Shown: in pieces, positions 1,285-45,867 of the stretch
How the letters are laid out: the number at the start of each line of letters is the position of its first letter
Numbering within the stretch: the stretch's first letter is position 1
NCBI GenBank assembly: GCA_964016885.1
Contig: OZ024754.1
Span: forward strand, 17,484,001 to 17,548,000
Length of the DNA stretch: 64,000 nt
Direction of reading: 5' to 3'
From: Eledone cirrhosa
Lineage: Eukaryota
Program-made: the position numbers and the translations under genes
The notes under the pieces: model-generated
What the model was told of the DNA's origin: nothing
The model's input: the letters and a program-made list of their open reading frames with translations, nothing else
Database searches by the model: none

Positions 1285-2020
1285 TGTATATATGTAAAAG
1301 GTAAACAGAAATAACAACACAATCAGTACAGTATATGGAAGGTATATATTAGGTTAACGCTTAATATAGCAGGAAGAGGGTCTTAACGTTTCGGACGCTA
1401 GTCCTTCATCAGAAGAAAGAATGAGAAATAAAATAGATTGAGGGGACGGGCGGCCTGGAATTGTAAAAAATGTCTTTAGATAAAAATAACAGGTCCATTC
1501 ATGTTGACATCTCTTGCAAAACTGTTGGTGCTGCCGTTTTGTGTATGATTTGTTTTTTAGAAAAGTGGATGATGACAGGCGTCTACCTGAAATGTAAAAA
1601 AAACGAGCTATACTTGAGAACGTGCGTAACCATGAGTTAATGTGTGTGTGTGTGTTATTATAGGTCCGTACTTAGCTAAGAAGAAATGTGTGTATATATG
1701 TGAGTAAAAGAGTGTGTGTGCATGTAAGTACGAAACTATGAGCAAAAGTATGTTAATATAAGGGAGTGTATCGGCATGTATTAGTAGTAAGAGAAGCTGC
1801 TAATGATCAAGAGAAAGCGATAGGAATCTAGGGGTGTGATAATGGACGGGGTATTAGAGAAATTGGGGAGGTCAGTTGAGTCCAATATGGGAATAGGACC
1901 CAAGACGGTGAACAGACTTTGTTCAGTCCTGGTGCGCGAGGCCTGTGATCCATGATGTAAAAGTACACCCAGGACTGAAGCATTATTAGTATAAGAGATA
2001 AACAAGGATTGGTATTCCAA
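1285..2020 (-). mobile_element. Penelope-like element 3' fragment (GIY-YIG tail + pLTR)
   Basis: Near-copy of 29615-30500; encodes degenerate ...SRTRTEQSLF..LG endonuclease tail; carries an HHR at 1381-1416; abuts (TA)n. Confidence 0.7.
1381..1416 (-). ncRNA. minimal hammerhead ribozyme (dimer type)
   Basis: Minus strand: tctt-CTGATGA-a-GGAC(tagc)GTCC-GAAAC-GTT-aaga; palindromic AACGTT stem III. Confidence 0.7.
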
Positions 2021-2399
2021 TTTGAACTTGGTTACAATATTCTTTCTGCCTTTGTTAATAGTATAGCTTTAAAGAATTTAAATGAACTCCCTTTTCTTTA
2101 AATCCATCAACCAATGACCTCCACCCATCCCAATCCCCACCCTCTCCTACCACCAGAAAAGAAAAGATATAAATACCACCATATTTACTTGGACAGCCAG
2201 GTTCCTGATGATTTCTCACGAATTAAACAGTTCTAGACCTGTAGAAGCTTCTCTATATTAAATATAAATATAAATATATATATATATATATATATATATA
2301 TATATATATATATATATATATATATATATATAAAAGTTCTATTAAAATTGTTGGGATTCAACAAGCAAATATTTTTATAACTGATATAAAGCACTCAAC

Positions 2400-2740
2400 A
2401 AATATTTGGAGTAAAAATACGATATTAACAAATGGAAACTATATTTATAAAACCATATTTATTTCATTATACATATTTCAAGGACACCAAGTTAAATTAT
2501 GGTGTGCTTTCATCAGATAAAATATAATATAGATCAGTTTTATAAATAAATACTATCCGGGAGCTTCCAACAGTAATGGTTACATTCTTTAAGGGTATGT
2601 CAATATTTATTTATAAAACTGATCCATATTATATTTTATCTGATGAAAGCACATCCTAATTTAACTTGGTGTCCTTGAAATATGTATAATGAAATAAATA
2701 TGGTTTTATAAATATAGTTTCCATTTGTTAATATCGTATA
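2400..2740. repeat. fold-back (inverted) PLE terminus with two HHR-like motifs
   Basis: About 2420-2550 is the reverse complement of about 2603-2738; HHR-like cores at 2467-2520(-) and 2636-2689(+); flanked by (TA)n. Confidence 0.7.
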
Positions 2741-5700
2741 TATATATTTTTTTCTATACCTTTCATTTATATATATATATATATATATATATATATATAT
2801 ATATATTTAAGAGTTAAACAAGGTTCAATGAATACACCAAAGAATGAGTTTTACAATAGATTGGAAGCACTCAACTGAAAATGTTTTCCAGAGTTATTAA
2901 TATTAATTCAAAATATTAACAAAATAGATATTCTTGTGATCAATTATATTTTATTATACATATTTCAGAGGTACTGAGTTAAGTTCAACAGTACGTCCTC
3001 ATCAGATAAAATAAAATGATACATGACATACCCTGACATAGTAGATGGTTAAGATTCAATCAAGGTAGTGATTAACTTATGACAAAACTCAATATTTATA
3101 CCCTAATATTGAGAACATGAGATAACATAATACAAACAATAGACAGGGTGCGTGTAATAGATTTTAAGAAATACATGGCATCAATATAACAGTTATAACA
3201 TTTTTAAAAACTACTGGAGAAAGAGGAGGGAAATGAAAGCATAGAGGAAGAAACAGCTGATGTGATAATATATTTAGTAGGTGGCTTGAAAAGACAGATG
3301 AAAGATGATTAAAGAGAGAGAGAGACAAAGGGGAGTAATTTATATACACACAGATTTCTATATAATCAACATGCGTCCAGAACAACATAGTTGGCGGTTA
3401 ATTTTCAAAATATTTAATTTAAGTTATTTCAGGGTAAAGAATCATATTTTAGGTTTTTAAAGTTAATAGGTATTTGTATTAATATTATAATATAATTATG
3501 TTTAATTTCTAAAATTCAAATTTTATGAAAACAAATTTAAAGGATTTACGAAACACGAGAAAGAAAATATATATATATAATGTTTTATAACCTCACGAAG
3601 GTAATCTTTACCAAAATTGCTTATAATATTGACAACAGTTTCTATAATATAATTTATAAGATAATTATAGTTATAATTATTAAAGAATTTATTGTTAAAT
3701 AGTTTGAGGGCCTAAAGTATCAACCGGCCTTATAATTAAACTTAAAGCAGTCAGAATTTTTAACTATATATATGTATTGATCATAAAATACAAAGATTAT
3801 AGTTTATTATTTGTTCATGGTTGAGGTGATACCTTTCAAATATAAATAATATATCATTATATTACAATAATGCAATATAGTAAATCATTTCCTGAAGATA
3901 TTGTTCAAAAATATATATAGTCAAAAATATTGTTCAAGAATTAATGTTTTATATCAATTATTTTCATTTAGTTGATATATACTATAAAGATATAAGTCAA
4001 AACTATGAGTCCTAATGATAGGGGCTAGATACAAAATAAATATACAAATAAAAGAAAATGAATAAAAGAAAAGAAAAGAAAATGAATATATATATATATA
4101 TATATATATATATATTGTTGATTTCAAATGAATGAAACAGTTCTATTCTTGTAATAGTCCTTTTTGTATGAAATAAATATGTTCCTTCTTTACTAATATA
4201 TATGTCTGTGTGTTTAAAGTGAGGTGGGGTGGGAGAGATAAAATCAAGTGAACAAGAAAGAAAGCGAGATATATTGGATACCAGATATATCTTAAAAGTA
4301 CTTTTACTCCTATAAAGCATCTAAAAGTGATTGGTTAAGTAACACTTGTTACCGAACTATAGTAAAAAGTTCAAAGGCGTCTCCTACAGGGAAAATTACG
4401 TTCTTTGATTGCCTGCCAAATGAAATATTTTCAATATTCATTTTGTGTTAATTATTATACACAAGCTTTGAAATGAGATATTTTAACTGCATACCCCCAC
4501 CCCAACCCCACCCCACTAAAAGGTTATTACCATCATAACTGACGTGAGATTGAATCAAATAGTGAAAGTGAATCTGTGTTGAACTTTCTCCCCAATTCGT
4601 CTTCTCAGAAAGTAAAATTTTAGTTATAATATGAACAATCATCTAAAATTATTTCTCAAATAAAAACAATCCTTTTGTTGTGTTTTGTTTTGTTTGTTGT
4701 TTTTTTCTTTGCAAGTAAACTCTAAAGACAACCGAAAGCAGAAAGAATTGTGGGGAAAAGGACATACACACTCAATTACAAGCCATCTAATCATTTTTTA
4801 GGCAAACCAACACACTCAGAGCTTTGCTGCAGGTGATAGTGAAACTATGACGCTGGAATAATTTAACACCCTCGTTGGTATATATATATATAGGAAAAAT
4901 TCGGAACACCGACGGCTGAACAGTTCGGATCTAGTTTTTGAAACGGCCGGAGCTCAGCCGTCGGGATCCCAAATTTTTCATATTACCCACTCTACTGCCT
5001 CAAGTATAGAGTAATCTGGTGAGTAATGGTCTCACTGGTTTTCACTGCCTCCATTCTGATATATATATATATCAAGTAAGAATATTTTCGAAACAGCGAG
5101 TGGATTTGAAATTATTAGAAATGTTAGCTATCGCCGTATTTTGACTAAAGAGATGAGTATTGACGTACATGTACGTCAATACTCATCTTTTTCCATTTCT
5201 CCGAGGGTTCTTAACCCCACTATCAGGCTAAATAATTAATTTAATTTCTTTAGTCAAAATACGGCGATAGCTAACATTTCTAATAATAATAATAATATAT
5301 ATATATATATATATATATATATATATATATAATGTGGGTAATAATAAATATTACCCAATTACAAGTATAAAAATAGTTCAATGTAAAATACCAAGTTTAC
5401 TACAGACCCGAAATGCAATATAAATGACAATCAAAGAGTGTTTAAAAGATGTAATCACTTACGATCGTTTCATCCTAACACAAGCCCGGTTTCATCGGAA
5501 TAGATAACAAAGGTCAAACATAAATATATCAAAACTTTGTCACAGGAACACTAGGAGGATACATGATATGGGAGGCCAGATAAGTATCAGTATCAACATT
5601 TATATAAGATAACAGAGACGGAAGAGGCATAAGTGAGAATAGGAGCGGATAAAAGCATTAAAAATTTAAAAATATGGTGTTACAAAAAAATTGTAAAATA

Positions 5701-44469: not shown

Positions 44470-44740
44470 GTTATGTAATAAACAACATAAGGCAATTATT
44501 CCATTTACCAGTGGTTTCTTAAAAGCAAAGAATTTTGCTTTCAATCCTCAGAATGAAAAAATCCTGGTCTGTTTATTGAATTTGGATTTTAAAAACAAAA
44601 AGATTTTTGTTTTAAAATCCAAATTCAATAAACAAACCAGGATTTTTTCATTCTGAGGATTGAAAGCAAAATATTTTGCTTTTAAGAAACCACTGGTAAA
44701 TGGAATAATTGCCTTATGTTGTTTATTACATAACTATTAA
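44470..44740. repeat. fold-back palindrome in (TA)n
   Basis: About 130-bp arms centred near 44600; its tail matches 17333-17445 in reverse. Confidence 0.8.
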
Positions 44741-45656
44741 GCTCTGTTACCTACATAGAGCACTCTTTTTTCCTGGACTTTTCCCACGGAATTACTTCAT
44801 TCACACATATATATATATATATATATATATATATATATATATATATATATATATATATATATACAAAAGTACAGCATATTCGAAGTTCGAGTAGCAGCTA
44901 AGCCAACGAATGCCTTCAGCAGTGCAGCCAAGTACTCGACAAGGTATAGACCTCAGAGTAATAACATACAGTTTAAACGGCTTTGCAAATTGAAAATACC
45001 GACCGCTAATTCAGCTGCGTGATCTGTAGCAACGAAAGAACTGACTAGTGAGAAAAAATACACACACACACACATACATACACACACATATATGTATACA
45101 CATATATATATATATATATATATATATACACACACATACATACGTATATGCACACATCTGTATATATAACATACCTGGACCGTAACTTCGAAACTATTGA
45201 ATATCCAAGTGAGGTTTCTGTAAATCCGAAATCAACAAAATCCGCTGGTGGTGTATACAAGTTAGGTTTCTGGAAGATCGAACAGGGGACTTACTTTCTC
45301 AACAGGCTTTCGTTCTAACCCAAATCCCGGTGTGAAGCACATGTTACTCCAAAGGGAGGTAACCCAGGTTTATGGCGTTCAAATTCAAATTATGAGCAAT
45401 GGAAAAAATTCCATACACTAACTGAATTAAGCACTCAACCAGACCGTTATTAAACAAACTTAAATAATTAACCAATCAATGGAATTGTCAAATTAAATTA
45501 ATCAATTAATCATTAGGTCTAGGAGATAGTAATACAATATATATACATATATGAATTCCCTTTTCTATCAACCAATGACCTACACCCATCCCACTCGCCA
45601 CCCTATCCTACCATCTGAAGAGACCTATAATTACCATATTTATTTTTTGATACCCA

Positions 45657-45867
45657 GATTCCTGATGATTTCTAAAGAATGAAACAGTTCTAGTCCTGTA
45701 GAATCTCATCTATATTAAAACTTTTATACTCTGCAATGTATTGAGTACCTTACTTACTGTGGTTACCTCCGATTCAACCCGGAATAACGTATATATATAT
45801 ATATATATACGTTATCAGCTTCCTGAAGATTTCATCTGAATGAAACAGTACTAGTCCTGTAGAAGCT
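45657..45867 (+). ncRNA. two tandem type I hammerhead ribozymes
   Basis: 45657-45705: gattc-CTGATGA-tTTC(taaa)GAAt-GAAACAG..CTGTA-gaatc. 45817-45867: agcttc-CTGAAGA-tTTC(atct)GAAt-GAAACAG..CTGTA-gaagct. Confidence 0.8.

What the first reader, a model, noticed from the sequence alone, without database searches (positions are those of the whole stretch)
1381..45867. Dense collection of more than 20 hammerhead-like ribozymes from many unrelated PLE families
Seen: CUGANGA/GAAA cores with pairing stems at 1381, 2467, 2636, 2954, 10326, 10704, 11129, 11807, 16354, 17864, 19058, 24926, 28573, 29509, 29718, 33766, 34333, 35598, 37690, 39180, 42081, 42605, 43022, 45657 and 45817. Several lie downstream of GIY-YIG ORFs in the sense orientation and near (TA)n. 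Established: PLE pseudo-LTRs carry minimal HHRs that often need dimerisation. Inference: roughly one ribozyme motif per 2 kb, in around ten different architectures, points to a large and probably uncatalogued self-cleaving RNA repertoire that would cut read-through transcripts on either strand.
Basis: partly seen in the sequence, partly recalled or inferred. Interest (0 to 1): 0.75.

Follow-up and report, generated by a model that had tools for sequence, protein, structure and literature searches.

The report
Penelope-element hammerhead ends saturate a genome
The self-cutting-RNA motifs are real and mark the tail ends of about a dozen Penelope-type jumping-gene families and one non-coding repeat that those genes likely move; this animal genome holds at least 140,000 such motifs, but most copies are predicted to be silent rather than cutting host RNA.

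Summary
All 25 listed sites belong to repeat families carrying a type I hammerhead. 17 fit a full descriptor, 8 have a damaged or weak element, and 2 more were missed; shuffles give under 1 hit. They fall into 12 architectures. Seven lie 0.2-1.9 kb downstream of a GIY-YIG remnant on the same strand, mostly Hydra-clade PLEs. One family is a 422-bp tandem retrozyme. Eight exact patterns give 140,324 matches in the 3.0-Gb genome; a 400-kb sample suggests about 280,000, so the window is only about 3-fold enriched. Six families end at (TA)n at two fixed points downstream of the scissile bond. Opposite-strand neighbours are back-to-back (70 versus 8), so read-through RNA carries the antisense copy first. 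Many helix III arms need a dimer. 'Cuts read-through RNA on either strand' is therefore doubtful. U3-A8, U10.1-U11.1, the 9a insertion and palindromic helix III are all published. Not found in the papers read: the scale, roughly 100-nt stem II inserts, and tails of 56-100 nt. Cleavage and expression are untested. The scan reported the same system, including this retrozyme, on other DNA of this genome.

The parts
1385..1412 (-). Family A minimal hammerhead (9a insertion, 4-nt palindromic helix III; dimer type)
   Evidence: 3,827 genome matches
2205..2243 (+).
2468..2516 (-). Family B hammerhead, left arm of a back-to-back pair
2640..2688 (+). Family B hammerhead, right arm
2955..3005 (-). Family B hammerhead (another subfamily)
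8141..9716 (+). Broken Hydra-type PLE ORF (RT plus C-terminal GIY-YIG region, frameshifted)
   Evidence: RVT_1 E 0.004; CxCx5C and CxxC..N..CxH motifs; 82% to L171
10331..10412 (+). Family G hammerhead (U3-A8 core, long stem II), helix III partly decayed; 615 nt behind the ORF
10448..11234 (-). Retrozyme C, 1.9 tandem units of 425 bp; ribozymes at 10710-10740 and 11135-11165 with short stem I
11757..16441 (.). Two-armed family D PLE insertion (arms 11757-13809 and 14321-16441, 95% identical); Hydra-type EN at 13732-14349 (-); ribozymes 11810-11841 (-, C3U) and 16357-16388 (+)
   Evidence: 1,153 genome matches
17869..17940 (+). Family E hammerhead, long stem II, 5-bp helix III; folds as a monomer; parent element not found
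   Evidence: 700-bp relative in L122
19062..19656 (-). Family P: GIY-YIG EN (19303-19656) and decayed hammerhead (19062-19096) 207 nt downstream
   Evidence: Pfam GIY-YIG above cut-off; same layout in L173, L056, L017
23648..25058 (+). Family R: Hydra-type EN (23648-24112) and hammerhead (24935-25058) with a 105-nt branched stem II and 8-nt palindromic helix III
   Evidence: 5,493 genome matches to its 5' half
28574..29557 (.). Back-to-back family B pair: 28574-28618 (-, first stem II pair broken) and 29513-29557 (+)
29722..30504 (-). Family A: GIY-YIG remnant (30244-30504) and minimal hammerhead (29722-29749) 495 nt downstream
   Evidence: L190 relative has linker Zn finger and CCHH residues
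33502..34071 (+). Retrozyme C copy; ribozyme 33772-33802
34339..35214 (-). Family Q: GIY-YIG EN (34876-35214) and hammerhead (34339-34369) with U3-A8 plus U10.1-U11.1, 6-nt palindromic helix III, bulged stem I
   Evidence: same layout in L013/L172, L228
35447..37938 (.). Two-armed family G insertion (98% identical 1.18-kb arms); intact U3-A8 hammerheads 35603-35686 (-) and 37695-37778 (+), for which the ribozyme fold is the minimum-energy fold
   Evidence: 3,354 genome matches
39181..42130 (.). Two-armed family B PLE: ribozyme 39181-39227 (-), Hydra-type ORF remnants 40681-42004 (-), inverted copy 42084-42130 (+)
   Evidence: 77,343 genome matches to the B architecture
42414..42916 (-). Retrozyme C, young subfamily; intact dimer-type ribozyme 42611-42641 with U10.1-U11.1
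   Evidence: 24,859 genome matches
43022..43130 (+). Family S hammerhead-like motif, about 95-nt stem II, 8-nt palindromic helix III, stem I weak or bulged; sister subfamily has a normal stem I
   Evidence: 4,061 genome matches for both subfamilies
44506..44698 (.).
45662..45861 (+). Two family F hammerheads (45662-45700, 45823-45861), U10.1-U11.1, 4-bp near-palindromic helix III
   Evidence: 20,234 genome matches; 2.2-2.3 kb behind a Hydra-type EN in L174, L166

Best explanation
The motifs are type I hammerheads at the 3' ends of (TA)n-inserted Penelope-like retroelements, mostly Hydra-type, plus a 422-bp tandem non-coding repeat with the same insertion footprint, and they likely serve the elements' own RNA cycle rather than the host. 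Shown: position behind GIY-YIG ORFs, conserved cores, pair-keeping variation in the stems, two fixed 3' ends per family downstream of the scissile bond, and back-to-back arms. Inferred: tandem (pLTR-ORF-pLTR or multimeric) transcripts fold two ribozymes into a dimer and cut; the RNA that is copied is religated (circular) or uncut, since every copy runs through the cleavage site; the PLE protein cuts (TA)n DNA and starts reverse transcription at two internal sites, one from each DNA end, giving the two arms; heavy 5' truncation leaves mainly the ribozyme-bearing ends, which pile up in TA tracts. Most genomic copies would be silent, lacking a tandem partner or being paired with their antisense arm; solo monomer-competent copies (families E, G, H, perhaps D, F) are the exceptions.
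For: 7 of 25 sites lie 0.2-1.9 kb downstream of a same-strand EN remnant; L171 has two direct family G copies 3,583 bp apart around one ORF. Hydra motifs CxCx5C, CxxC..N..CxH, DKT, RWK (versus section 11 of PMC8557442). Helix III centre of the B architecture is self-complementary in 89 of 95 distinct copies, in six versions. Family C pair 2.3-1.3 shows four pair types in 16 of 17 variants. Two 3' ends: C 21 and 19 of 46 terminal copies; D 18 and 9 of 31; G 14 and 14 of 32; one short and one long end in 37 of 41 measurable back-to-back pairs. Among the first 100 genome matches of each of G, D, F, C, neighbours within 6 kb are 70 divergent and 8 convergent. With the inverted partner the ribozyme fold costs 61-87 kcal/mol, alone 0.7-8. 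PLE tails come from two internal RT starts (PMC11167929).
Against: No cleavage or expression data. In the one reconstituted PLE, ribozyme mutants did not change insertion and uncut RNA was the main template (PMC11167929), so the cut-and-circularise step may not be needed. No parent ORF was found for families E and H. Four longer ORFs from related loci gave no Pfam hit, so the clade rests on motifs, with no tree. Arms 2-4.5 kb apart may let a local ribozyme fold and cut before the hairpin forms. 41, 60, 62 and 34 of the 100 listed G, D, F and C matches had no neighbour within 6 kb, so antisense masking covers only part of the copies. The core-conservation figures are biased, as many copies were retrieved through the core.
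Confidence: 0.75

Rival explanations
1. The hammerheads are passengers or slow, protein-gated switches: uncut read-through or multimeric RNA is the template, and cleavage plays no needed part in insertion.
For: All copies span the scissile bond. PMC11167929: catalytic mutants insert normally and cleavage needs protein. Naiads spread without canonical hammerheads (PMC8557442). One subfamily of S has a weak stem I yet makes up a large share of the listed matches. Eight of nine Xenopus retrozyme dimers did not cleave (bioRxiv 10.64898/2026.07.22.740005).
Against: Twelve architectures keep the core and keep pairing through compensatory changes, which points to selection on the active fold. Tandem arrays of family C at 420-430 bp periods fit unit-length processing.
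Confidence: 0.3
2. One reading: the motifs form a host-relevant field of active ribozymes that cut read-through transcripts on either strand.
For: About one motif per 10 kb genome-wide, on both strands about equally. Families E, G and H fold as monomers within 0-1 kcal/mol of the minimum. Many copies are solo.
Against: The most abundant architectures (B, C, A) have no stable helix III as monomers. Paired copies are masked. 8 of 25 window sites are damaged. Published PLE minimal ribozymes cut poorly (PMC4209133).
Confidence: 0.15
3. Chance matches or DNA-transposon (MITE) hairpins in AT-rich sequence.
For: The descriptor gives false hits in an AT-rich satellite (9 in L144) and about 4 per 400 kb in shuffles. 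Short back-to-back pairs look like MITEs.
Against: 18 hits versus 0.57 in shuffles; reversed-pattern controls 0-11 versus thousands; arms have unequal fixed ends and variable inner junctions.
Confidence: 0.02

Closest known systems
Hydra clade of PLEs and their hammerheads (Craig et al. 2021, PMC8557442; section 11, passages and supplement part 2 read)
   Same: C-terminal GIY-YIG, CxCx5C linker, CxxC/CxH, DKT, RWK, (TA)n target, 3' type I hammerhead; U-U at the base of stem II and palindromic helix III are common in their File S2; inverted 5'-truncated copies.
   Different: Their set was 27 listed families with compact ribozymes. Here there are many families at thousands to tens of thousands of copies, U3-A8 cores, stem II inserts of 55-110 nt and 3' UTRs up to 2.3 kb, none of which appears in the Hydra rows of File S2; tails are 56-100 nt versus 30-40 bp.
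PLE minimal hammerheads (Cervera and de la Pena 2014, PMC4209133; parts 1-2 of 4 read)
   Same: 9a insertion, palindromic helix III, dimer action, U3-A8 variant (about 1,300 in S. mansoni), many consensus families per genome, opposite-strand pairs 100-700 bp apart, mostly single truncated copies.
   Different: Counts there are thousands (X. tropicalis about 9,000); G10.1-C11.1 is called highly conserved, whereas the largest families here lack it.
Metazoan non-LTR retrozymes (Cervera and de la Pena 2020, PMC7229834, parts 2-3 of 6 read; Li et al. 2026 bioRxiv 10.64898/2026.07.22.740005, parts 1-3 of 5 read)
   Same: Family C: non-coding tandem unit of 422 bp with a type I hammerhead; U-U at the stem II base as in axolotl HHR_Amex2; PLE link proposed.
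   Different: Family C shows the PLE insertion footprint directly (two fixed ends 56-59 nt apart, back-to-back arms, TA target). Axolotl has 126,247 motifs in about 28 Gb; here at least 140,324 in 3.0 Gb. Circular RNA not shown here.
PAc Poseidon element of Anolis (Frangieh et al. 2024, PMC11167929; parts 1-2 of 4 read)
   Same: Two internal RT start sites explain two genomic ends; AT-rich target cut on both strands.
   Different: Different clade; starts lie in the ORF 5' region; here the two ends are further apart and are split between the two arms of one insertion.

Membership tests
Type I hammerhead ribozyme | Conserved core (or published variant) joined by stems I, II, III | tested here: met
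   17 of 25 pass descriptors; 8 carry defects; Rfam RF00163 above gathering for 1
Type I hammerhead ribozyme | Pair-keeping variation in stems across copies | tested here: met
   B helix III 89 of 95; C pair 2.3-1.3, 16 of 17
Type I hammerhead ribozyme | Site-specific self-cleavage at N17 | not testable with these tools
   needs in vitro assay
Type I hammerhead ribozyme | Loop I-loop II tertiary contacts of fast natural ribozymes | not tested
   not analysed
Hydra-clade PLE (families B, D, F, G, R, S) | GIY-YIG domain C-terminal to RT in one ORF | tested here: met
   window 8141-9716, L171, L165, L131; Pfam support is weak or absent
Hydra-clade PLE (families B, D, F, G, R, S) | CxCx5C linker and CxxC/CxH around the conserved E and N; no CCHH | tested here: met
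   motif scan; my CCHH-type pattern hit only the P and Q endonucleases
Hydra-clade PLE (families B, D, F, G, R, S) | RWK and DKT motifs | tested here: inconclusive
   both in L165 (family S), an RWR form in L171 (family G); N-termini of the other families were not recovered
Hydra-clade PLE (families B, D, F, G, R, S) | Insertion into (TA)n, with inverted truncated copy and one-sided tail | tested here: met
Hydra-clade PLE (families B, D, F, G, R, S) | RT phylogeny groups with reference Hydra elements | not tested
   reference proteins were not available as tool sequences; no tree built
Canonical C-terminal EN+ PLE, Neptune-like (families A, P, Q) | GIY-YIG with CCHH residues at the ORF end, hammerhead behind it | tested here: inconclusive
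   EN and position met; RT not recovered, so clade not fixed
Non-LTR retrozyme (family C) | Non-coding 150-450 bp tandem unit, one type I hammerhead per unit | tested here: met
   422-bp unit, longest frame 53 aa, arrays of 7 or more; 31 direct neighbours among the first 100 matches
Non-LTR retrozyme (family C) | Expressed as linear and circular monomers | not testable with these tools
   needs RNA data

The most novel reading that the evidence does not exclude
This genome carries one of the densest hammerhead loads known in an animal (about 280,000, roughly 20 times the axolotl density), built by a Hydra-clade PLE radiation that primes both ends of a cut TA tract at two fixed sites of one religated RNA. 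The back-to-back layout silences each ribozyme with its own antisense arm, and families R and S are active hammerheads with 100-nt branched stem II domains of an undescribed kind.
Probability: 0.3. Interest if true: 0.72.

Novelty: new variant of a known kind. Interest (0 to 1): 0.5.

Why it matters
The role of PLE hammerheads and the origin of PLE inverted and tailed insertions are open questions (PMC8557442, PMC11167929). This genome offers young, high-copy families with mapped ends, several ribozyme designs and a non-coding rider, so cleavage, circularisation and two-site priming can be tested on defined constructs. It also shows that Rfam-style annotation misses nearly all such motifs (1 of 25 here). 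The class, the PLE link and each core variant are already published, which limits the surprise.

Tried and rejected
No RNA holder was listed for the family C stretch; the four runs laid were contigs of unrecorded type, so nothing follows about expression. I first read 24926 as spurious, then as a fixed A14U core variant; the alignment showed a normal core strand 105 nt downstream, so both readings were dropped. I first read 43022 as spurious; it is a 4,061-match family. A pseudoknot there between the strand after N17 and a segment inside stem II (8 bp) has no covariation support and is absent from the sister subfamily, so it is not claimed. Family C as the 3' end of neighbouring ORFs (L161, L162) was rejected: a TA tract or another family's ribozyme intervenes. 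Naiad identity was rejected for the ORFs where RT precedes EN. Rfam microRNA hits are TA-repeat and hairpin noise below gathering scores (77 lower rows were not shown). Nine hits in satellite L144 were set to zero before the density estimate. Lunse et al. 2017 (PMC5785218) is not held. A final script to tabulate coordinates did not run; coordinates come from earlier outputs. No family tree, complex prediction or protein fold was run.
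Full report
Setting. The window is G000:C14:17484001-17548000 of a 3.0-Gb animal assembly. It is 35% GC and its first 46 kb are cut up by (TA)n tracts. I did not determine the organism; earlier AI notes of this scan call it a cephalopod, which I did not test.

1. The observation. A hammerhead descriptor gives 8 strict and 16 relaxed hits against shuffle means of 0.02-0.06 and 0.3-0.6, and 18 against 0.57 when one bulge is allowed. 16 of the 25 listed sites pass, and 24926 passes with a 105-nt stem II. 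The remaining 8 are recognisable copies with defects. Rfam calls only 16351-16395 above its gathering score, with 11803-11847 at E 0.015, among the 150 of 227 rows shown. The sites form 12 architectures: A (2 copies), B (7), C (4), D (2), E, F (2), G (3), H (2), P, Q, R, S.

2. What they belong to. Seven sites lie behind a same-strand endonuclease remnant: 10331 (615 nt), 11841 (1.9 kb), 19096 (207 nt), 24935 (823 nt), 29749 (495 nt), 34369 (507 nt) and 39227 (about 1.4 kb). The same spacing recurs elsewhere: G in L171, L125, L169; B in L167, L168, L175; F in L174, L166; P in L173; R in L135, L241; S in L165, L253; Q in L228, L172. L171 holds two direct G copies 3,583 bp apart around one RT-EN ORF. 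The ORFs of B, D, F, G, R and S carry the CxCx5C linker and CxxC..N..CxH motif of the Hydra clade, and L165 also has RWK and DKT (criteria from section 11 of PMC8557442). A, P and Q have CCHH-type endonucleases. Pfam support is thin: RVT_1 E 0.004 and GIY-YIG above cut-off for 2 of the 60 frames scanned, and nothing for four longer ORFs. No parent ORF was found for E or H. Family C is a 422-bp non-coding unit in tandem arrays, that is, a retrozyme.

3. Scale. Exact genome-wide matches: B architecture 77,343 (reversed control 11), C 24,859, F 20,234, R 5,493 (5' half only), S 4,061, A 3,827, G 3,354, D 1,153. The other controls were 0. The sum is 140,324, or 47 per Mb; matches are motif counts, not proven intact ribozymes. 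Forty evenly chosen 10-kb stretches gave 49 descriptor hits; 9 were in one AT-rich satellite and were removed, 3 long-stem hits were added and about 4 are background, giving 94 per Mb (bootstrap 57-142), about 280,000 in all. The window has 19 descriptor hits in 64 kb, about 3 times that rate; one sampled 10-kb stretch had 6. By exact patterns the window has 19 against 2.8 expected, but those patterns were drawn from the window. Clustering of 382 hits in 1.04 Mb of fetched DNA gave 21 clusters seen at two or more loci.

4. Ribozyme anatomy. Helix III is palindromic or nearly so in every family folded; A, B and C have no stable helix III as a monomer but form 4-8 bp homoduplexes. With the four central bases left free, 89 of 95 distinct B-type copies are self-complementary, in six versions; the centre can pair only between two ribozymes, so this points to selection for dimers. 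E, G and H fold as monomers at 0-0.6 kcal/mol above the minimum. In C, pair 2.3-1.3 takes four pair types in 16 of 17 variants, and in laid contigs the common variants inside the ribozyme fall on those two partners, loop II and N7, not on invariant core bases. G and Q have U3-A8; C, F and Q have U10.1-U11.1; A has the 9a insertion; R and S have stem II inserts of about 100 nt.

5. Insertion footprint. Families end in (TA)n at two fixed distances behind N17: C about 217 and 275 nt (21 and 19 of 46 terminal copies), D about 52 and 153, F about 21 and 90, G 17 and 97, B about 52 and 145, H 36 and 108, S about 42-52 and 155-165. In 37 of 41 back-to-back pairs where both ends could be measured, one arm had the short end and one the long (10 further pairs had an unmeasured end, and overlapping loci may count a pair twice). 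Among the first 100 genome matches, neighbours within 6 kb were divergent/convergent/direct 27/3/1 for G, 17/0/3 for D, 15/2/3 for F and 11/3/31 for C. All six same-family close pairs in the window are divergent. PMC11167929 traces PLE tails to two internal RT start sites. Because every copy continues past N17, the copied RNA was uncut or religated there (inference).

6. Consequence for read-through RNA. In a divergent pair either strand transcribes the antisense copy first. Folded with the partner, opening the ribozyme costs 61-87 kcal/mol, against 0.7-8 alone (the 2-kb G pair was assessed only as an arm duplex). This and dimer dependence argue against general cutting. Against my reading: a third to two thirds of listed copies are solo, some families are monomer-competent, and distant arms may pair too late.

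7. Literature. PMC4209133 (parts 1-2 of 4): minimal PLE hammerheads, U3-A8, 9a insertion, families per genome, low activity. PMC3088659 (passages): U10.1-U11.1 and palindromic helix III. PMC7229834 (parts 2-3 of 6): retrozymes; axolotl 126,247 motifs, one family with the U-U mismatch. PMC8557442 (passages, section 11, supplement part 2 of 59): Hydra clade; File S2 shows U-U and palindromic helix III but no U3-A8 or long stem II in the Hydra rows. bioRxiv 10.64898/2026.07.22.740005 (parts 1-3 of 5): retrozymes as PLE derivatives; 1 of 9 cleaved. PMC6962438 and PMC13282606 (passages): 235 Rfam hammerhead hits in giant squid; no ribozyme analysis in an octopus repeat annotation. PMC6765202 and PMC6155905: passages. 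Lunse et al. 2017 could not be read; from memory it reports about 150,000 short-helix-III variants across databases and may cover some of these designs. From memory S. mansoni may reach a similar density; not checked. Five searches found no report of this scale or of 100-nt stem II inserts in PLE ribozymes; subscription papers and preprint supplements are not covered.

8. Verdict. A real and large system of a known kind. New in degree: copy number, breadth of Hydra-type families, long-stem variants, long tails and a consistent two-armed footprint shared with a retrozyme. I reached the family map, counts and two-end result before the look-ups, which show that the scan has described the same system several times; those notes are not independent support.

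Noticed in passing
window 53838-54260 (-), 53764-53810 (-): Core histone gene (Pfam Histone E 6e-19) with a histone 3' stem-loop just below the Rfam gathering score; a lone replication-type histone gene among repeats.
   Followed up: no
window 49379-53023: 45-bp minisatellite, 81 copies, 96% matches, with two stop-free frames of 1,256 and 1,223 aa on the minus strand.
   Followed up: no
window 30512-30851 and 32299-32638: 340-bp direct repeats (98%) flanking 1.4 kb with no Pfam hit; the left one cuts off the family A endonuclease and the right one abuts (TA)n. Possibly a small LTR-like or pLTR-bounded element.
   Followed up: no
window 18655-18870, 4940-5072, 17327-17450: 3' halves of family G and H elements, truncated inside the ribozyme; 18765-18862 is a perfect fold-back of two such halves. 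Very short insertions without a core are common in the loci.
   Followed up: partly
window 26312-26838, 42122-42388, 47838-47993, 48503-49424, 55198-55319, 62396-62533, 63587-63784: A dispersed short palindromic repeat family with about eight copies and no hammerhead.
   Followed up: no
window 18254-18613 and 28281-28427: A perfect fold-back element in (TA)n whose arm is 100% identical to a copy 10 kb away.
   Followed up: no
window 20053-20765 (-), 22986-23576 (-), 47173-47532 (+): Fragments of an APE-type LINE, a DDE_1 transposase and a hAT transposase.
   Followed up: no
window 43022-43140: In this subfamily of S the strand after N17 can pair for 8 bp with a segment inside stem II instead of the weak stem I; could be an off state. 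No covariation found.
   Followed up: partly
L123, L126, L132, L159, L161, L163, L164: Further hammerhead families absent from the window, several with U3-A8, including one with U3-A8 and a 103-nt stem II in L132.
   Followed up: no
G000:C1 listed matches: Family C ribozyme occurs in arrays of several periods (420-430, 466, 478-516 bp), suggesting related retrozyme subfamilies with one ribozyme.
   Followed up: no
runs X5 and X6: Contigs from two other coded organisms cover parts of the family C unit, including the ribozyme, with pair-keeping differences.
   Followed up: partly
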